Source: an uncultured Candidatus Saccharibacteria bacterium (GTDB taxonomy: Bacteria > Patescibacteriota > Minisyncoccia > Phycocordibacterales > UBA2100). Taken from it: a stretch of 64,000 bases of DNA. The notes under the pieces are model-generated. The model was not told the origin of the DNA. It saw nothing but the letters and a program-made list of their open reading frames with translations, and did not search any database. The stretch is from assembly GCA_964434285.1 (NCBI GenBank), contig CAYSUJ010000001.1, positions 168,703 through 232,702 of the forward strand, read 5' to 3'. Every line of letters starts with the position of its first letter. The stretch's first letter is position 1. Position numbers and translations under genes: made by a program. This document shows, in pieces, positions 4,747 to 60,369 of this stretch.

Positions 4747-4819
4747 TGGACCGTACCGGGATCGAACCGGTTGCCTCATCCATGCCATGGATGCGCTCTA
4801 CCAAGTGAGCTAACGGCCC
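4747..4819 (-). tRNA. tRNA-Ala (anticodon GGC)
   Basis: Cloverleaf folded by hand on the reverse complement: acceptor GGGCCGT/ACGGTCC carrying the Ala G3:U70 identity pair, D-stem GCTC/GAGC, anticodon stem CATCC/GGATG with loop AT-GGC-AT, T-arm ACCGG-TTCGATC-CCGGT. CCA is not encoded. Confidence 0.85.
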
Positions 4820-7989: not shown

Positions 7990-8063
7990 TGCACCTTTCA
8001 GGATTTGAACCTGAGGCCTTTCGAATGTGAATCGAACGCTCTAACCAACTGAGCTAAAGGTGC
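7990..8063 (-). tRNA. tRNA-Val (anticodon CAC)
   Basis: Acceptor GCACCTT/AAGGTGC, D-arm GCTC-AGTTGGTTA-GAGC, anticodon stem TTCGA/TCGAA with loop TT-CAC-AT, T-arm TCAGG-TTCAAAT-CCTGA; no CCA encoded. Confidence 0.85.
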
Positions 8064-21357: not shown

Positions 21358-21429
21358 TTCCGCGGTAGCTCAATGGTAGAGCAGCTCGCTGTTAACGAGT
21401 TGGTTGTAGGTTCGAGTCCTACCCGCGGA
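21358..21429 (+). tRNA. tRNA-Asn (anticodon GUU)
   Basis: Acceptor TCCGCGG/CCGCGGA, D-arm GCTC-AATGGTA-GAGC, anticodon stem GCTCG/CGAGT with loop CT-GTT-AA, T-arm GTAGG-TTCGAGT-CCTAC, discriminator G; no CCA encoded. Confidence 0.85.
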
Positions 21430-22990
21430 GCACGACAGGATGAGAGGAGCCGAAAGGCTCCTTTTGTCCAATGTTTGCAACCCTTTTTCGCGGTTCTGAA
21501 ATCTTATTGAGCCTTGGCACCCAATTTGCCAAGAAATCGAACGCTAAAGTGTACTCCGGTTTGATCTCACGACCCTCAAGAGCGATGGTCGAGAATGCGT
21601 AACTCAACAACAGCCGCCGATCATCCGTCGTGGCGTCTTCGCTTTCGTAGATTTCCTTGGCGACGGATGCAAGTTCGTGTATCGCATATCCGGCTTCGTA
21701 GTATTTCCTGTTGCCTTTGTTGAGGCGTGCGATTTCATTGGTTGCATCTTCTTTCTGCGCACTGTATTGCTTGAAGAGACGGTCATACGTCTCGACGCTG
21801 ATCTTGCCGTCTAGCTTGTCTTCGTACAGCGCTTCGAGCCGGCGCTGGGATCGCTCAATCGTCATGTTCAATTCCGCAAGCTTTGAGTTGAAGCGTGCTA
21901 TCTCATCCACGTGGCTTTCTTTCAGCGCTTCATTCAGAACATCTAAGACACGCTTGTTCTTCGGTGCAACCTTGAGCAACATCGGGAGCAATTTCTCTTC
22001 CACCTTTTCCTGTCGGACGAAAACGTGACGTTGTTCGCATTTTTGATCCATTCCCGCACGCTTATAGCCGTTGCAATGACCGTACCAATGACCTTTCTGT
22101 CGTTCCCATGTGACGGAGCCGCCGCAAGTCGTGCAGCACATCTTCGCCTTGAATACCGGAATGTGTTTATTGAATTGCGGCTGGTTCAACGTGCGGCTGA
22201 GAAGTAGTTGTACGCGATCGAACAATTCGCGGCTGATGAGACCCTCATGCTTTGCCGGCATGACATCGCCCTTCCACCTGAGGGCGCCATAATAAAACGG
22301 ATCCCTAAGCAAGTCGTACATTCTGCTGCGGCCGACCTTCTTTCCCGCATGATTGCGCAAACCCTCGTCGTACATCGCTGCGGAGAGATTTACGACCGAG
22401 TAATTTCCAGAGGAGTACAACTCAAACATTTTCCTGAGAAACCGAGCCCGAGCCTCGTCGATTACATGGATTTTGTGCCCTTTCTCACCGATGGTCTTGT
22501 ATCCGAGCGGCGGTTTTGTCGGCAACCAGCCCTGCGCGATCTTTTCCTTCTGCCCCTTCTTCACTTCTTCGGAGAGGTTCGAGATATACTTTTTCGCGAG
22601 AACAATCTCGATATCCCAGCGAAACTTCTCGTCGGACTTCGCTTCCTTGTGAATGACCAGATTCTGTTTTACGAAATGAACTTTGCGTCGAGCGTCCGCC
22701 TCGATCCAATCATTGACGGCGACCGCATCTTTCATGTTGCGCGTAAGACGGTCTACCTTTTCACACAAAAGATTGCTGATCTGGTGCTTTTCCATGTAGC
22801 GCATCATCTCGTAGAAGACGGCACGCTGTTTCGATCCGCTAGCCGATTCGGAGATCGAAAACACCTTTACGATCTCGTACTGTTTTCGCGCCGCGTAGTC
22901 AGCGAGCAGCTTCTCCTGCGCCGGCAAAGAATATCCGGCCTCCTCTTGCTCCCGCGAACTCACACGTGCGTACACCAACGATTTCTCCAT
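21419..22990 (-). CDS. large serine recombinase (integrase): resolvase-type catalytic domain YARVSSREQ, recombinase domain, zinc-ribbon CxxC...C, coiled-coil tail
   Basis: The catalytic Ser motif lies in YARVSSREQ. The 523-aa length and Cys cluster (CCTTCGGS...HWYGHCNGY) are typical of large serine integrases. The stop overlaps the 3' end of tRNA-Asn. Confidence 0.85.
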   Translation of the reverse strand: MEKSLVYARVSSREQEEAGYSLPAQEKLLADYAARKQYEIVKVFSISESASGSKQRAVFYEMMRYMEKHQISNLLCEKVDRLTRNMKDAVAVNDWIEADARRKVHFVKQNLVIHKEAKSDEKFRWDIEIVLAKKYISNLSEEVKKGQKEKIAQGWLPTKPPLGYKTIGEKGHKIHVIDEARARFLRKMFELYSSGNYSVVNLSAAMYDEGLRNHAGKKVGRSRMYDLLRDPFYYGALRWKGDVMPAKHEGLISRELFDRVQLLLSRTLNQPQFNKHIPVFKAKMCCTTCGGSVTWERQKGHWYGHCNGYKRAGMDQKCEQRHVFVRQEKVEEKLLPMLLKVAPKNKRVLDVLNEALKESHVDEIARFNSKLAELNMTIERSQRRLEALYEDKLDGKISVETYDRLFKQYSAQKEDATNEIARLNKGNRKYYEAGYAIHELASVAKEIYESEDATTDDRRLLLSYAFSTIALEGREIKPEYTLAFDFLANWVPRLNKISEPRKRVANIGQKEPFGSSHPVVLRG

Positions 22991-24653: not shown

Positions 24654-24883
24654 GCCGGAATGCTACCTTTTCCGGCCCCTTAGCGGCAAGCGGGTAGCCT
24701 GCTACAATGCCCGTGTCGCTCACAGAGCGATTTGCCTAAACTCGTCGGAAACGGCGGGCATGGCAAAAAGACAGATCATGCCCAGAAACCCGTCACGGGG
24801 TTCGCATGATCTGCCGTATGGGGAAACCCATATGCCCGTGGCGGTTTTTTGCTGCCCGGATTTATAAAATTATTCGGGATAAC

Positions 24884-55906: not shown

Positions 55907-56686
55907 CTAGAACGAGCGCAGCTTGTCGCGATATATAAGCGATACGAGTGCGAAACTCAGAATGAGGAGCAAGAACCACGAACCAATTTTTGCAAAGGAA
56001 ACGAGGTGCCAGGCGTAAAGCTGGCTCGGATACAGCCAGATGTGGGTAAAGGTACCGACGTTTTCGGCGACCCAGACGAAAAATGCCGTGAGGAGTGCTG
56101 CCGCGAGAAACGGCATCGCACGCTCTTTCGTATACACCTGAAAATAGATGCGAGTATTCCAAAAAATGAAGAGAACATAACCAAAAAGAAAATAGCGGAT
56201 ATCAAGAACGTAATGGTGTGTGAAGAAATTCAAATATATCAGCACAGCCATCACCCAAAGGTGGTAGTAGGCCGGAAAACATTCGAAGCGCAACCGAAGA
56301 AAATGGAACGCACGAGAAATGTAACTCCCGACAGCAGAGTAAAGAAAGCCCGTAAAGAGCGGCACGGTTGCTATCGCGAAAAAGGTACCGGGAAGACCGG
56401 GATATACCCAAGACGCTATATCCGGATGTGTCTTGAAGAGTTCCATCAGAGTCGCGAGCACGTGAAAAATAAGAATGACGGCAAACTCCCGAAACTCTTC
56501 GAAACGAAAAAGAAGCGCACTCGCTTGAAATGCAACGGCAGCAAAAAAAATGACGTCGTACCGTGCGAGGCCAGGTACTGCAATAAGCTCCGTTACTAAA
56601 AACACTGCAAGAAGAAACGCTCCGAACTGGCTCGCCCGTGCGTTCGCGATCCCGAAGTGCCAGAGTTCTCTCATAATCTGTTGCAT
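55907..56686 (-). CDS. polytopic integral membrane protein of unknown function
   Basis: About 8 hydrophobic segments. Confidence 0.5.
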   Translation of the reverse strand: MQQIMRELWHFGIANARASQFGAFLLAVFLVTELIAVPGLARYDVIFFAAVAFQASALLFRFEEFREFAVILIFHVLATLMELFKTHPDIASWVYPGLPGTFFAIATVPLFTGFLYSAVGSYISRAFHFLRLRFECFPAYYHLWVMAVLIYLNFFTHHYVLDIRYFLFGYVLFIFWNTRIYFQVYTKERAMPFLAAALLTAFFVWVAENVGTFTHIWLYPSQLYAWHLVSFAKIGSWFLLLILSFALVSLIYRDKLRSF

Positions 56687-56709
56687 ACACTCAGTACTAA
56701 CGGTACACC

Positions 56710-57975
56710 CTACTTCTTCTCAGCACGAATATGTTTGTATGTCCGAAGCAGCTCGCGCGCGATGTTCTCACTCTTAAACTGCTCGGCGGTTTTCTCAGCT
56801 GCCTCAGCCATTCTTTCACGGAGCACGGGGTCAAATCGAAGCAGTCTAATCTTTTCGATCGCTGCTTTCTCGCTTCCAACCAAGAATCCATTCTCTCCGT
56901 CACGAATGATCTCAGGCGCAACACCAACCGGGAACGTAACCGGTATAAGACCCTGCGACATACCTTCGACTAAAGAGAGGGAAAAGCCTTCATAGCGCGA
57001 TGAGACGATGAGAATGCTCCCCCGAAGAGGCGCAAGTGCCCCGGGAATAAAATCTTTGCGCATATTTACGAACATGTGGTGTTTGGGGAACGAGACTTTC
57101 AACCACTCTTTAAGCTTACGGCTCGTCGTCATGCACACAGTGGTTTTGGGCATTTCGGGAAATGCCTTGTAGATATTCACCAATCGACTGAAGCCTTTTA
57201 ATTTCAGCGTATAGATGTCACCACCGAGGCGACCAAGAAAGACGAGGTGCGGCTCTGCTATAACCTCGGATGTACGACGTCCATGATTGAACCAATAATC
57301 TTCTATCGCGTTATGAATCACATGAATGTTTGCTTCAGGAACACCGGCTTCCATCAGTTCCTTCTTCACTTTCTTTGAGGTTGCGATGCAGGCGGAGGCC
57401 TTGAGGGCTGTCAGCTCTTCCACGTCGGCTACATCCTGAATGGGACGAAGTGTCTTGAAATCGAGTTCCGGTATAATTCCGAGTCGGAAAAGATGTTTGA
57501 ACACAGCTTTTTGAGCCTGAGGCAAATCCAGTGTCCAAGGTGTTGAATTTAGAAACCCGCGACTCGTCGAACCAAAGTGACACACCGTGGGCGTCTGAAA
57601 TGGTGTAAACGGAAGCGGCGTATAGGTTGTGCCCTGCACGATGTCTGCAGCAAGTACTTTGTCTTTATATTCGAGGAGAGAATAAAAGAAGAGGATGTTC
57701 GCGATGCCTTTCAAATGCGAAGGTGTTTCGAAGAGCTTTTGCTTCGGAAAAATGTGCTGTACGTCCACCCCTTCTTTGGAGAGCGCTTTCGAGATCAGAT
57801 CGTTTATCTGACTGGCTCCTGTTTGAAGCTTCTTTTCATTATGAATGAAGGCGACCCTGAATTTTCGGGGTGCTTTAAGGACTTCTGGTGCTTTCTCCCC
57901 CCGAAAAAGCCTTAAAAAGGTTCGCGTTGCTTGGTACGATCTCCGGCCGATTGAGCCTTTCTTTTTCTTTGCCAC
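56710..57975 (-). CDS. glycosyltransferase family 4 (GT-B fold)
   Basis: E-x7-E motif region VSSRYEGFSLSLVEGMSQGLIPV... Confidence 0.8.
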   Translation of the reverse strand: MAKKKKGSIGRRSYQATRTFLRLFRGEKAPEVLKAPRKFRVAFIHNEKKLQTGASQINDLISKALSKEGVDVQHIFPKQKLFETPSHLKGIANILFFYSLLEYKDKVLAADIVQGTTYTPLPFTPFQTPTVCHFGSTSRGFLNSTPWTLDLPQAQKAVFKHLFRLGIIPELDFKTLRPIQDVADVEELTALKASACIATSKKVKKELMEAGVPEANIHVIHNAIEDYWFNHGRRTSEVIAEPHLVFLGRLGGDIYTLKLKGFSRLVNIYKAFPEMPKTTVCMTTSRKLKEWLKVSFPKHHMFVNMRKDFIPGALAPLRGSILIVSSRYEGFSLSLVEGMSQGLIPVTFPVGVAPEIIRDGENGFLVGSEKAAIEKIRLLRFDPVLRERMAEAAEKTAEQFKSENIARELLRTYKHIRAEKK

Positions 57976-58057
57976 GTTCTCAACATAATACCACGTTTTT
58001 CATACTCTTTCCAGCGCATCACGCTGTTGCATCTTTTCGCTCTGGTATACTGAAATA

Positions 58058-58246
58058 ATGAACATTTTTTCGAACAGCACGTTCACATGGTGGCAGGTTG
58101 GTGTCTTTAAATTATCAACCGTTGGTTTTGGTGTTCTTGTCGGCGCATATTGGCACGAATTCTTTGGTCAGTACCTTTTCCCCATCCTCACCATCTCGCT
58201 TGTTGCAGGCATATATATTAGTTGGGTGTACTTTAAACAGCACTAA
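58058..58246 (+). CDS. small 2-TM membrane protein, 62 aa
   Basis: A TATACT -10-like element directly upstream; no Shine-Dalgarno, so possibly leaderless. Confidence 0.3.
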   Translation: MNIFSNSTFTWWQVGVFKLSTVGFGVLVGAYWHEFFGQYLFPILTISLVAGIYISWVYFKQH

Positions 58247-58668
58247 TGGCGAGGACCCGGTGGATTCCACGAGAATTTAAACTCCGCGTGCGCAAATCTG
58301 CCACCGGGCGCGGGCTTTTTGCTGAAGAACCAATTCCTAGAGGCGCATGCATTATTGAATACACTGGGCGCCCCGCAACGCTTGAAGAAATGACGCGCGA
58401 TGAAGGCAAATATCTCTTCTGGACGGGAAAGACGACGATGATAAACGGGAACATTTCCTCGAATCTAGCCCGGTATATCAATCATTCTTGTGCGCCGAAC
58501 TGTGAAGCCGACGGCCCCGAGGGGCGCATCTTTATCATCGCGCGCCGCGCTATTAAGGCGGGCGAAGAGCTCACCTATGACTATGGAAAGGAGTATTTTG
58601 ATAAGCACCTAAAACCGAAGGGGTGCAAGTGCACAGCGTGCGTGCGAAAGCGCGAAAAACGTGTATAA
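58246..58668 (+). CDS. SET-domain protein (putative lysine methyltransferase)
   Basis: GRGLFA, NHSCAPNC (the SET N-H-S-C pseudoknot motif), ELTYDYG, and a post-SET Cys cluster CKCTAC. Confidence 0.8.
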   Translation: MARTRWIPREFKLRVRKSATGRGLFAEEPIPRGACIIEYTGRPATLEEMTRDEGKYLFWTGKTTMINGNISSNLARYINHSCAPNCEADGPEGRIFIIARRAIKAGEELTYDYGKEYFDKHLKPKGCKCTACVRKREKRV

Positions 58669-58676
58669 TCGCCGCC

Positions 58677-58802
58677 ATGGGACAAGGAAGAATCTCGCCG
58701 ATCATGCGCAAGAAGTCGCGCTCGCGGAAGACGAAGAAGCGTCTTGCCACAAAAGCGACCATGCTCGCCGCGAAGAAAACAAAGCGCGCGAAGCGCCGAT
58801 AA
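58677..58802 (+). CDS. 41-aa lysine/arginine-rich ORF (MGQGRISPIMRKKSRSRKTKKRLATKATMLAAKKTKRAKRR), not in the ORF track
   Basis: Starts 9 nt after the SET stop; a strong terminator follows immediately. Confidence 0.35.
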   Translation: MGQGRISPIMRKKSRSRKTKKRLATKATMLAAKKTKRAKRR

Positions 58803-58819
58803 ATTTACCATCATCTCGT

Positions 58820-58851
58820 ACAAGGCTCCGCAAGGAGCCTTGTCGCTTTTA
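58820..58851 (+). terminator. ACAAGGCTCC-gcaa-GGAGCCTTGT followed by CGCTTTTATAAT
   Basis: Perfect 10-bp stem plus a T-run. Confidence 0.65.
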
Positions 58852-58868: not shown

Positions 58869-59117
58869 CTACGCGCGTAACATCCTCACAATCCAGATGA
58901 GAATCACGGCGCCAAGTGTTGCGACTACAAGGCTGTAGATGTCAAAACCAGTGACCCCTGCGCCGCCAAACGCGTTAAATGCCATGCCTCCGATAAACGC
59001 GCCAATAATGCCTACAATGACGTTGCCAACGATTCCTTGTGACGCATCGGTGTCCATCAACAATGACGCCAGCCACCCCGCAATGCCACCTAAGACTAAG
59101 AATGCAATAATTCCCAT
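58869..59117 (-). CDS. second GlsB/YeaQ/YmgE-family membrane protein
   Basis: LGGIAGWLASLLM...GIIGAFIGG. Confidence 0.75.
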   Translation of the reverse strand: MGIIAFLVLGGIAGWLASLLMDTDASQGIVGNVIVGIIGAFIGGMAFNAFGGAGVTGFDIYSLVVATLGAVILIWIVRMLRA

Positions 59118-59181: not shown

Positions 59182-60369
59182 TTAGAGCGCCGCAAGACGA
59201 GCACGCGTGAGCGGACCAAAGTAACCAGCAGCTGGCGCAATCGCGTGCGCTCTTTGAAATGCGGCGAGCGCGGCCTTTGTGCGCGCACCAAAGTAATTTG
59301 ATTCATTGCCCGGCGAACCTGCGCCCGAAGATGCAACAGTGAATCCCTTCGTATTCAAAAATTTCTGAAGTTCGCGCACATCGGCGCCTTCCATGCCGAG
59401 TTCGAGATCACGCGAGAATCCATTTTCACTGGGGGTCGAAGCCGCCATGACACCTGACTGTCCGAATATAAGGGTATATGTTGCCTCATCAATAATGCCA
59501 CTCACGGAAAGCCCTGCGGCTGCCTGATATTCCATCAGAGCAGCGCGCGTGAGCGAGCCGTAATGGCCTGTCGCACCAGTGTTCGCGAGACGTGCGCCCG
59601 AACTTCCCTTCGGATTTGCAATGAGGAATTCTTGGAGTTCCCGCACATCTGCATTCGTCTCGCCGAAGACGAGATTCGCGCGGTACGCACGTGCGCTCTG
59701 CGGTTGCTCCGAGAGAGAAGTAGTTCCCGATGCAGTGGGAGTATGGGCACGCGGCAGCGCAATGCCTTTCGCCTCTGCATCAGCAATCGCCGTCTTGATT
59801 TCGTCTTCAGTAAACACGCTCGCGAGACGCGGATAGGGATCTGTCGCAGAGCCACCGGAGCGAATTTCGAGATGAAGGTGTGCAGGACCGCCGGACGCGT
59901 TGCCTGTATTCCCCACAAATCCGATAATCTCACCACGCGCAACACGATCGCCCGCCTCGATGCCGGACGCGATCGAGCTTAAATGCATATAGACGAAATT
60001 TTCTCCTCCCGGATTCGCGGTGCGTATATAGAGACCCGAATTCGTGCCGTTTCCGGTGCGGAGCACAATCGCCTCGGTGGGAGAAACAATCGGCGTTCCC
60101 TCTTTCGCCATGATGTCGAGCCCCTGATGCGTGCGCGTGCCGCCGCCACGCGCGTCGCCAAAATTTCTCGTGAGATTGCTGAGCTCAACGCCAAAGAGCA
60201 CCGGAATCGGAAGATTCTCGACGCGCGTCGTACTGAGATCGGCAACAAGTGAGGAGTAGCGGGATGAGTGTCCCCAATAGCGGCGGTCGTTTGGATCATC
60301 ATCTTCGAGCGCCTGTGCGGAGAGCACAAGTGGAAACAAGGCAAGCGCAACAACAATTCCTCTGCGCAT
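59182..60369 (-). CDS. M23-family metallopeptidase (LytM-like) with two C-terminal peptidoglycan-binding (PG_binding_1) domains
   Basis: HQGLDI...HLHLEIR zinc ligands; two L-x-x-F-L...G-x-F-G-x-x-T motifs. Confidence 0.8.
   Translation of the reverse strand: MRRGIVVALALFPLVLSAQALEDDDPNDRRYWGHSSRYSSLVADLSTTRVENLPIPVLFGVELSNLTRNFGDARGGGTRTHQGLDIMAKEGTPIVSPTEAIVLRTGNGTNSGLYIRTANPGGENFVYMHLSSIASGIEAGDRVARGEIIGFVGNTGNASGGPAHLHLEIRSGGSATDPYPRLASVFTEDEIKTAIADAEAKGIALPRAHTPTASGTTSLSEQPQSARAYRANLVFGETNADVRELQEFLIANPKGSSGARLANTGATGHYGSLTRAALMEYQAAAGLSVSGIIDEATYTLIFGQSGVMAASTPSENGFSRDLELGMEGADVRELQKFLNTKGFTVASSGAGSPGNESNYFGARTKAALAAFQRAHAIAPAAGYFGPLTRARLAAL

What the first reader, a model, noticed from the sequence alone, without database searches (positions are those of the whole stretch)
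58246..58851. SET-domain methyltransferase co-transcribed with a 41-aa lysine/arginine-rich ORF
A 140-aa bacterial SET-domain protein (NHSCAPNC, ELTYDYG, post-SET CKCTAC) is followed 9 nt later by an unannotated 41-codon ORF that is about 50% K/R (MRKKSRSRKTKKRLATKATMLAAKKTKRAKRR). A perfect 10-bp-stem terminator ends the unit immediately afterwards. In the few studied prokaryotic SET systems (Chlamydia, Methanosarcina) the substrates are small basic chromatin-like proteins. Here a candidate substrate/partner is encoded in the same transcript.
Basis: partly seen in the sequence, partly recalled or inferred. Interest (0 to 1): 0.6.

Follow-up and report, generated by a model that had tools for sequence, protein, structure and literature searches.

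The report
SET methyltransferase with split-off basic tail gene
A small bacterial SET-type protein methyltransferase is followed by a real, never-annotated 41-codon gene for a very basic mini-protein; in related bacteria the two are fused into one protein, which makes the mini-protein a directly testable candidate substrate or partner of the enzyme.

Summary
A 140-aa SET plus post-SET gene (58246-58668) is followed 8 nt later by a 41-codon, 44% K/R ORF (58677-58802) and a 10-bp-stem terminator.

The small ORF is a real gene. Its frame is conserved, dN/dS is 0.05-0.14, and it belongs to an unnamed family of about 40-aa basic proteins in Patescibacteria (64 clusters, no Pfam or NCBIfam hit). It is not L34 or any solved ribosomal protein.

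SET-then-peptide in tandem is ancestral to one SET clade (SET about 66% identical or more). Within that clade it fused into a single ORF at least twice and was lost or moved twice. Convergent and nearby arrangements occur outside the clade.

"Co-transcribed" is only half right. No terminator separates the two genes. However, a -10 box (TATAAT, which contains the SET stop codon) lies 7 nt before the peptide ATG and there is no SD. This leaderless-promoter signature is seen in 29 of 39 family members.

Most family members have no SET nearby. One lineage sits among the Obg, RluD and DEAD-box helicase genes. The peptide therefore has a function of its own, probably nucleic-acid binding.

The substrate or partner relationship is plausible but remains inferred. 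I rate it a new variant of a known kind, of moderate to high interest.

The parts
58043..58051 (+). TGgTATACT extended -10 box, 6 nt before the ATG of the 62-aa ORF. Candidate promoter P1 for a leaderless transcript carrying the 62-aa ORF, SET and the peptide.
   Evidence: Read directly from the sequence. The same architecture recurs before the peptide genes. No TSS data exist.
58058..58246 (+). 62-aa ORF with two predicted transmembrane helices. Its stop overlaps the SET start codon (TAATG).
   Evidence: ORF list. No Pfam hit. Conserved in L081 (87%), L082 (73%) and L120 (56%) by tblastn.
58246..58668 (+). SET plus post-SET protein lysine methyltransferase gene (140 aa).
   Evidence: Pfam SET E=1.2e-23. 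Invariant residues N79, H80, S81, C82, Y111, Y113, C127 and C129 across 26 homologs. Closest solved sequences are the KMT2D/C/A SET domains, E=4e-17. The AF2 model of a fused homolog has core pLDDT above 90, and the top Foldseek hits are MLL1, G9a and GLP.
58664..58669 (+). -10 hexamer TATAAT (P2), preceded by TG at 58662-58663. It contains the SET stop codon TAA (58666-58668) and ends 7 nt before the peptide ATG.
   Evidence: Read from the sequence. 29 of 39 unique peptide-gene upstream regions have a hexamer matching TATAAT at 5 or more of 6 positions and ending 5-9 nt before the ATG, and 0 of 39 have an SD-like motif. Controls give 13.9% and 16.7% respectively, and 2.3% for all ATG trinucleotides.
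58677..58802 (+). 41-aa basic protein gene (MGQGRISPIMRKKSRSRKTKKRLATKATMLAAKKTKRAKRR), a member of an unnamed Patescibacteria small-protein family.
   Evidence: Conserved in frame in L081-L085, L090/91, L094, L095 and L132. dN/dS is 0.05-0.14 and variable sites by codon position are 8/4/21. The family has 26 hits in the word-indexed search and 64 clusters in the exhaustive HMMER search. It is fused to SET in P0011, P0015, P0021 and P0026.
58820..58850 (+). Intrinsic terminator: 10-bp stem, GCAA loop and a T-rich tail, ending the unit.
   Evidence: Terminators at the same position but with different stem sequences follow the peptide gene in L081, L082, L083, L089, L090, L094, L095 and L132.

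Best explanation
The locus is a two-part module.

Part 1 is a minimal MLL-like SET plus post-SET lysine methyltransferase.

Part 2 is a 41-aa, roughly 45% K/R protein from a previously unnamed family of about 40-aa proteins in Patescibacteria (Paceibacteria/Minisyncoccia). The family core is K-K-S-x-S-R-K-T-K-K-R-L-A-x-K-A-x-M-L-A-A. It comprises a flexible Lys/Ser/Arg-rich N-terminal half and a C-terminal amphipathic helix.

Shown:
- The small ORF is a real gene under purifying selection.
- It carries the signature of its own promoter producing a leaderless mRNA. The SET stop codon lies inside that -10 box.
- No terminator separates it from SET, so SET transcripts must also run through it to the shared terminator.
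- The SET-then-peptide pair is ancestral to one SET clade and persists while both flanks change.
- The pair fused into a single polypeptide at least twice.

Inferred:
- The mini-protein is a nucleic-acid-binding protein, either ribosome/rRNA-associated or nucleoid-associated, with a function of its own.
- In this clade, SET acts on it or through it.
- Most likely SET methylates one of its invariant lysines: K18 in the S-R-K-T motif of the flexible segment, or K26 on the helix. This would parallel cpnSET-Hc1 and Go1-SET-MC1alpha.

My estimates: real gene, above 0.95. Functional link of some kind, about 0.65-0.7. Specifically enzyme-substrate, about 0.35-0.4. The confidence given for this explanation (0.6) refers to 'real gene plus a functional SET-peptide link, as substrate or partner'.
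For: Real gene:
- The frame, the 41-46-codon length and the protein sequence are conserved where SET is 69-84% identical.
- dN/dS is 0.05-0.14, and 21 of 33 variable sites are at third codon positions.
- Stand-alone homologs have been called as genes in other assemblies, giving 64 clusters at E<=1e-3 among 1.84 billion representatives.

Functional link:
- Tandem pairs have 8-44 nt gaps, and the flanking genes differ between loci.
- Four fused clusters exist (P0011, P0015, P0021, P0026). P0021 was seen on 3 contigs from 3 sources.
- An NJ tree places the fusions in two separate positions among tandem relatives, and the tail sequences agree with that placement.
- Convergent-adjacent pairs occur in L022 and L104, which lie outside the clade.
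- Among 40 peptide-seeded loci (288 kb in total), 5 hold a SET gene against 0.24-0.58 expected by chance. Four are within 500 nt or fused, against 0.05-0.11 expected.

Own promoter and leaderless mRNA.

Shared terminator.

Enzyme looks competent: catalytic and Zn-binding residues are invariant, and the fold is confidently predicted.

Tail anatomy: in the AF2 model of fused P0021, residues 147-163 have pLDDT 56-59 and residues 164-187 form a helix with pLDDT 81-91.

Precedent: small basic DNA-binding proteins are the substrates of prokaryotic SET enzymes (PMC3980110).
Against: - Most family members have no SET within 3-10 kb. Among loci with at least 3 kb on both sides, only 3 of 10 have one.
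- L120 keeps the DUF817-peptide arrangement without SET.
- In 80 species-representative SET loci (SET 62% identical or less), only L022 has the peptide, plus a weak hit in L046.
- The tandem cases largely belong to one clade, so independent events are few. With 2-3 independent events, the chance P is only about 0.002-0.1.
- The peptide is also fused in frame behind an unrelated GIY-YIG gene (P0149, P0169). Read-through fusion therefore seems to arise easily when the -10 variant (TATACT) holds no stop codon.
- AF2 gives low confidence for the Lys-rich segment and offers no sign that it docks in the active site.
- No experimental evidence exists for expression, nucleic-acid binding or methylation.
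Confidence: 0.6

Rival explanations
1. Targeting module rather than substrate. The basic peptide or tail binds DNA or RNA, and by fusion or non-covalent binding brings SET to the nucleoid or ribosome. There SET methylates other proteins.
For: SET orthologs in other lineages carry non-homologous K/A-rich C-terminal tails of 20-105 aa with K+R of 0.3-0.5. This applies to 17 of the 80 GTDB loci, mostly Alphaproteobacteria, and to P0064, P0111 and P0229. A basic appendage is therefore a recurring, convergent feature of this SET family. Fusing a catalytic domain to a nucleic-acid-binding module is the commonest meaning of such architectures. The conserved L23/A27/L30 stripe on the predicted helix could be a protein-docking face.
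Against: In the window and most of the clade the peptide is a separate polypeptide with its own promoter, so tethering would need an unproven non-covalent SET-peptide interaction. The peptide exists widely without a neighbouring SET, so it has its own role. The two models are not exclusive, since automethylated tails are known (NUE; PMC3980110).
Confidence: 0.25
2. No functional link. The peptide gene is an independent, highly expressed small gene that happens to lie downstream of SET in one clade. The fusions are neutral read-through accidents.
For: Most copies lack a nearby SET. GIY-YIG-peptide in-frame fusions show that the peptide tolerates, or falls into, fusion with unrelated upstream genes. 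The internal -10 box is retained in the fused genes (L089 TATACT, L112 TACACT), so the free peptide may be the only functional product. An 8-nt intergenic gap leaves little room for rearrangement breakpoints.
Against: The pair survives repeated rearrangement of both flanks. There are two independent fusions with the same partner. Independent convergent-adjacent pairs occur in distant SET lineages (L022, L104). SET is about 10-fold or more enriched near peptide-seeded loci. Fused ORFs persist across three clusters that are 75-78% identical (P0015, P0021, P0026), which argues against very recent accidents.
Confidence: 0.2
3. The small ORF is a divergent or mis-called known ribosomal protein gene (bL34, bL32, bL36, bS22 or Thx).
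For: The size and composition resemble these proteins. Pairwise Smith-Waterman scores against L34 are marginally above shuffles (p 0.008-0.14). One lineage of the family lies among the Obg, RluD-type pseudouridine synthase and DEAD-box helicase genes.
Against: No hit to Pfam Ribosomal_L34 or any other Pfam or NCBIfam model at E<=10. The profile search against all PDB chains, ribosomes included, returned only two designed proteins at E>1. The filters-off family HMM scores B. subtilis, T. thermophilus and M. tuberculosis L34 at 0 bits or less, and bS22, Thx, L36 and L33 at or below zero. The HGFR motif is absent and there is no rnpA neighbour. A new, lineage-specific ribosome-associated protein is not excluded and is included in the best explanation.
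Confidence: 0.03

Closest known systems
Chlamydophila pneumoniae cpnSET with histone-H1-like Hc1/Hc2, and Methanosarcina mazei Go1-SET with MC1-alpha
   Same: A small prokaryotic SET enzyme is paired with a small, very basic nucleic-acid-binding protein of the same organism as its proposed target (PMC3980110).
   Different: Those pairs were found biochemically, are not reported there as adjacent or fused genes, and their substrates are about 90-200 aa. Here the partner is about 40 aa, has no detectable similarity to any Pfam family, and is genomically coupled, in tandem or fused. No biochemistry exists.
Eukaryotic KMT2/MLL SET domains (H3K4 methyltransferases)
   Same: They are the closest solved sequences and folds: E=4e-17 with about 31-34% identity, and the top Foldseek hits. 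They share the NHSC and ELxYDY motifs and the post-SET Cys cluster.
   Different: There is no WRAD partner context and no flanking eukaryotic domains. The resemblance of the peptide to the H3 tail (LATKAA, RK[ST]) was tested and is not significant at family level.
Yeast SET-domain ribosomal protein lysine methyltransferases (Rkm1-4). This comparison is from my own knowledge and was not tested here.
   Same: SET enzymes that methylate small basic ribosomal proteins. This would be the analogue if the peptide is ribosome-associated, as its Obg/RluD/DEAD-box neighbourhood hints.
   Different: No homology beyond the SET fold was examined, and the ribosomal association of the peptide is only a neighbourhood hint.
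Bacterial SET orthologs with intrinsic K/A-rich C-terminal tails (Hyphomonadaceae, Bradyrhizobium, Methyloceanibacter loci L009-L080)
   Same: The same SET orthologous group carries a strongly basic C-terminal appendage.
   Different: Those tails are low-complexity and not homologous to the peptide. They are never a separate gene and lack the conserved SRKT...RLAxKAxML core.

Membership tests
SET-domain protein lysine methyltransferase (Pfam PF00856) | Match to the SET profile above the curated threshold | tested here: met
   84 bits against a cut-off of 22.4, E=1.2e-23, covering profile positions 1-105 of 105.
SET-domain protein lysine methyltransferase (Pfam PF00856) | Catalytic and SAM-binding motifs: GxG, NHSC, and ELxYDY with its Tyr | tested here: met
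   G21, G23, N79, H80, S81, C82, Y111 and Y113 are invariant in 26 homologs. The motifs are visible in the sequence.
SET-domain protein lysine methyltransferase (Pfam PF00856) | Post-SET zinc-binding cysteine cluster | tested here: met
   C82, C127 and C129 are invariant and C132 is at least 90% conserved.
SET-domain protein lysine methyltransferase (Pfam PF00856) | SAM-dependent lysine methylation activity | not testable with these tools
   Needs an enzyme assay.
Prokaryotic SET and chromatin-protein substrate pair (cpnSET-Hc1, Go1-SET-MC1alpha) | The partner is a homolog of Hc1/Hc2 or MC1 | tested here: not met
   No Pfam or NCBIfam family matches six members at E<=10.
Prokaryotic SET and chromatin-protein substrate pair (cpnSET-Hc1, Go1-SET-MC1alpha) | The partner is a small basic nucleic-acid-binding protein that SET methylates | not testable with these tools
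   Composition (44% K/R, 41 aa) fits. Binding and methylation need experiments.
   No Pfam, NCBIfam or PDB hit. The filters-off HMM scores three of four L34 sequences at 0 bits or less. The neighbours are SET and a GlsB-like gene.
Leaderless-mRNA gene | A -10 box ending about 5-9 nt before the start codon, and no SD | tested here: met
   In the window, TATAAT at 58664-58669 is followed by 7 nt and then the ATG. Across the family, 29 of 39 have such a box and 0 of 39 have an SD. Controls give 13.9% and 16.7%.
Leaderless-mRNA gene | Transcription start mapped at or next to the start codon | not testable with these tools
   Needs 5' RACE or dRNA-seq.
Rosetta-stone (fusion/fission) gene pair | The two separate genes occur as one ORF in other genomes, more than once | tested here: met
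   P0011 (L089), and P0015, P0021 (L112) and P0026. They occupy two positions in the SET tree.
Intrinsic terminator | G+C-rich hairpin followed by a U-tract, conserved in position | tested here: met

The most novel reading that the evidence does not exclude
The roughly 40-aa protein is a lineage-specific chromatin or ribosome component of Patescibacteria. Its invariant lysine in the flexible S-R-K-T segment is methylated by the neighbouring MLL-like SET enzyme. This would be a minimal, genetically coupled 'writer plus basic tail' module in bacteria, captured in separate, tandem and fused states. It would be the first prokaryotic SET system in which the endogenous substrate is identified by gene fusion, and an experimental entry point to protein-methylation-based regulation in the uncultivated CPR.
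Probability: 0.35. Interest if true: 0.75.

Novelty: new variant of a known kind. Interest (0 to 1): 0.58.

Why it matters
For almost all free-living bacteria, what their SET enzymes do is unknown. The few characterised cases are either host-directed effectors or act on nucleoid proteins that had to be found by trial. Here genome context nominates one specific, synthesisable 41-residue candidate, and natural fusion proteins offer a ready construct for an automethylation test.

The work also brings to light a small-protein family that gene callers miss. It has a family-wide leaderless-promoter signature and occurs in a phylum with reduced ribosomes and unknown chromatin proteins. Finally, it shows concretely how a promoter's -10 box can double as the stop codon that keeps two genes separate: TATAAT contains a stop, whereas the TATACT variant does not and the genes fuse.

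Tried and rejected
- Known ribosomal protein (L34, L32, L36, bS22, Thx). Rejected by Pfam, NCBIfam, a PDB profile search and a filters-off HMM. The pairwise scores were only marginal.
Single-sequence shuffle p was 0.003-0.1. The family HMM scores H3 at 0.0 bits, and 103 of 500 shuffles do as well. No H3 hit appeared in the PDB profile search. Rejected as evidence.
- Universal SET-peptide adjacency. Rejected: none of 80 species-representative loci has a K/R-rich ORF directly downstream, and only L022 (convergent) and L046 (weak) hold a homolog.
- A known RNA element at the site. The Rfam gathering scan finds nothing there.
- Docking of the tail in the SET active site. AF2 coordinates are not exposed, so only pLDDT and secondary structure could be read.
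- Genome-level co-occurrence of SET and the peptide.
- First attempt at the profile alignment (A4). It used a start coordinate off by one and was discarded in favour of A5.
- Three script calls failed on an hmmsearch option clash, diagnosed it, and one search is the valid run.

Full report
**1. Observation**

The + strand carries a 140-aa ORF at 58246..58668. It matches Pfam SET over the full profile: 84 bits, E=1.2e-23. It has the NHSCAPNC, ELTYDYG and CKCTAC motifs.

Eight nucleotides after its TAA stop, an ATG at 58677 opens a 41-codon ORF that ends at 58802.

A perfect 10-bp stem with a GCAA loop at 58820..58843 is followed by CGCTTTT. It folds at -20 kcal/mol with z = -4.75.

The exact peptide is absent from a collection of 15 billion predicted proteins, whereas the SET protein is present. 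The small ORF is therefore genuinely uncalled.

**2. Organism and enzyme**

SET homologs number in the thousands. The closest carry names such as Minisyncoccia, Patescibacteria and Paceibacterota.

Catalytic and zinc-binding residues are invariant across 26 homologs. The closest solved sequences are the KMT2D/C/A (MLL) SET domains at E=4e-17. An AF2 model of a fused homolog has a SET core with pLDDT above 90, and its top Foldseek hits are MLL1, G9a and GLP. The enzyme looks competent.

**3. The small ORF is a real gene**

In relatives whose SET is 69-84% identical, a 41-46-codon ORF follows SET in the same orientation after 8-44 nt. This holds for L081, L082, L083-85, L090/91, L094, L095 and L132. 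The protein sequence is conserved.

Among five close sequences, dN/dS is 0.05-0.14. Variable sites fall 8/4/21 by codon position. The other two frames contain stops in some sequences. The internal Met10 is not conserved, so the first ATG is the start.

**4. It belongs to a family**

A profile of the peptide retrieves 26 called proteins of 36-70 aa in the word-indexed search. An exhaustive HMMER pass over 1.84 billion representatives gives 64 clusters at E<=1e-3, nearly all 37-84 aa.

- Invariant residues: M1, K18, R22, L23 and K26.
- Near-invariant residues: S16, R17, T19, A27 and L30.
- The N-terminus varies (MGQGRISPI or MAKRPDVDI).

No Pfam or NCBIfam model matches at E<=10. A profile search of all PDB chains gives only two designed proteins at E>1.

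In the AF2 model of the fused protein, the Lys/Ser-rich half has low confidence (pLDDT 56-59). The KKRLAxKAxMLAAR half is a confident helix (pLDDT 81-91). The conserved L23/A27/L30 residues lie on one face of that helix; this last point is my inference.

**5. Fusion and fission**

Four protein clusters are single ORFs in which SET runs through a short linker into the peptide, with its Met retained. They are P0011 (228 aa, locus L089), P0015 (187 aa), P0021 (189 aa, locus L112, seen on 3 contigs from JGI, Logan and GEM) and P0026 (188 aa).

An NJ tree of SET cores gives these results:

- One clade comprises the window, P0001, P0002, P0006, L094, P0023, L095, P0033 and the fused forms. The tandem pair is ancestral to it.
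- The fusions sit in two separate positions, P0011 and the group P0015/P0021/P0026.
- P0014 (L086) and P0027 (L133) have lost or moved the peptide.

The tail sequences agree with this. The P0011 tail resembles P0121. The P0015/21/26 tails resemble the tandem peptide of L132. The tree rests on 131 columns and has no support values.

**6. Promoter**

In the window, TATAAT occupies 58664-58669, contains the SET stop codon (58666-58668), and ends 7 nt before the ATG. No SD is present.

| Set | Hexamer matching TATAAT at 5+ of 6 positions, ending 5-9 nt before the ATG | SD-like motif |
|---|---|---|
| 39 unique peptide-gene upstream regions | 29 (14 with an adjacent TG) | 0 |
| 533 long control ORFs | 13.9% | 16.7% |
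| All ATG trinucleotides | 2.3% | not scored |

This is the signature of an own promoter producing a leaderless mRNA. The fused genes keep a -10-like box that contains no stop: TATACT in L089 and TACACT in L112. Whether the two genes are separate or fused therefore depends on which -10 variant is present and in which frame it falls.

No terminator lies between SET and the peptide. Each tandem or fused unit ends in a terminator at the same position but with a different stem sequence. SET transcripts must therefore also include the peptide ORF.

The 62-aa membrane ORF upstream (58058-58246) overlaps the SET ATG (TAATG). It has its own TGgTATACT box 6 nt before its ATG.

**7. How tight is the association?**

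It is not universal.

- None of 80 species-representative SET loci (62% identical or less) has a basic ORF directly downstream. Only L022 (convergent, adjacent) and L046 (weak, 2.3 kb away) hold a homolog.
- A metagenome scan seeded with the peptide gave 36 loci. With four more loci from look-ups, 5 of 40 hold a SET gene. They are L094 and L095 (tandem), L112 (fused), L104 (convergent, 408 nt away) and L092 (4.5 kb away).
- Chance would give 0.24-0.58 such loci. For pairs within 500 nt, chance would give 0.05-0.11.
- Because several of these belong to one clade, the independent events are perhaps three. That leaves P at about 0.002-0.02.

SET-less copies have varied neighbours. One lineage, however, repeats the order GIY-YIG, Obg, RluD-type pseudouridine synthase (divergent), peptide, DEAD-box helicase (L131, L130, L093, L114 and L101). 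That is a ribosome-biogenesis flavour.

L120 has DUF817 next to the peptide with no SET. The window, L081 and L082 have DUF817 followed by SET and the peptide. SET therefore appears to come and go beside a resident peptide gene.

The peptide also occurs fused in frame behind GIY-YIG (P0149, P0169).

**8. Basic tails elsewhere**

17 of the 80 SET loci encode non-homologous K/A-rich C-terminal tails of 20-105 aa. Most are Alphaproteobacteria. A basic appendage recurs in this SET family.

**9. Interpretation**

Shown:
- The small ORF is a real, conserved gene from a new family.
- It carries an own-promoter, leaderless signature and shares a terminator with SET.
- The pair is ancestral to one clade, has fused twice, and recurs in other arrangements elsewhere.

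Inferred:
- The peptide binds nucleic acid, on the ribosome or in the nucleoid.
- SET methylates it or is recruited by it.

The substrate model follows precedent: cpnSET with Hc1, and Go1-SET with MC1-alpha (PMC3980110). It also fits a separate, independently expressed protein. The targeting model fits the convergent basic tails. The no-link model fits the wide distribution without SET and the GIY-YIG fusions.

**10. Leads rejected**

Similarity to L34 and to the H3 tail looked tempting by eye and was marginal in pairwise shuffle tests. Both vanish with the family HMM run with filters off. The curated Pfam, NCBIfam and PDB searches are the primary evidence.

**11. Novelty**

Full-text searches for SET domains in Patescibacteria or the CPR found nothing relevant, and the bacterial-SET review I read reports no adjacent or fused partner gene. 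I class this as a new variant of a known kind: a prokaryotic SET enzyme with a small basic partner. The partner family is new, the pair is genetically coupled in tandem or fused states, and the promoter-as-stop-codon architecture is unusual.

Noticed in passing
window 24733-24845 (+): Rfam LOOT RNA (RF03000), 69.8 bits against a gathering score of 46.4. Three tRNAs lie at 4747-4819 (-), 7990-8063 (-) and 21359-21430 (+).
   Followed up: no
window 58043-58246 (+): 62-aa ORF with two transmembrane helices. Its stop overlaps the SET ATG (TAATG), and a TGgTATACT box lies 6 nt before its own ATG. It is conserved in L081 (87%), L082 (73%, not adjacent to SET) and L120 (56%).
   Followed up: partly
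all fetched Patescibacteria loci (L001-L133) and the window: 13.9% of ORFs of 200 aa or more have a -10-like hexamer 5-9 nt before their first ATG, and only 16.7% have an SD-like motif. Leaderless mRNAs may be common in this group.
   Followed up: no
P0149, P0169 (proteins): The basic peptide is fused in frame to the C-terminus of a GIY-YIG nuclease-like protein, with the linker ...RYTPAMAKR (TATACN -10 box). Separately called GIY-YIG genes also lie 2-5 kb upstream of the peptide in L130 and L131.
   Followed up: partly
L131 5125-8486; L130 9234-10153; L093 3429-6878; L114; L101: Recurrent synteny of Obg, RluD-type pseudouridine synthase (divergent), peptide and DEAD-box helicase in the MAKRPDVDI-type lineage. 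This hints at a ribosome or RNA role for the peptide.
   Followed up: partly
L071, L077, L080, L029, L031, L034, L038 and others: SET orthologs of Alphaproteobacteria carry non-homologous K/A-rich (histone-H1-like composition) C-terminal tails of 20-105 aa.
   Followed up: partly
L120 3278-4239, compared with window 55907-58802: DUF817 (-) lies directly next to the peptide gene with no SET in L120. The window, L081 and L082 have DUF817 (-), intervening genes, then SET and the peptide. SET seems to be gained or lost beside a resident peptide gene.
   Followed up: partly
window 58869-59117 (-): A convergent 82-aa transglycosylase-associated (GlsB-like, PF04226) gene ends 26 nt beyond the terminator hairpin. 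An M23 peptidase with PG_binding_1 domains lies at 59182-60369 (-).
   Followed up: no
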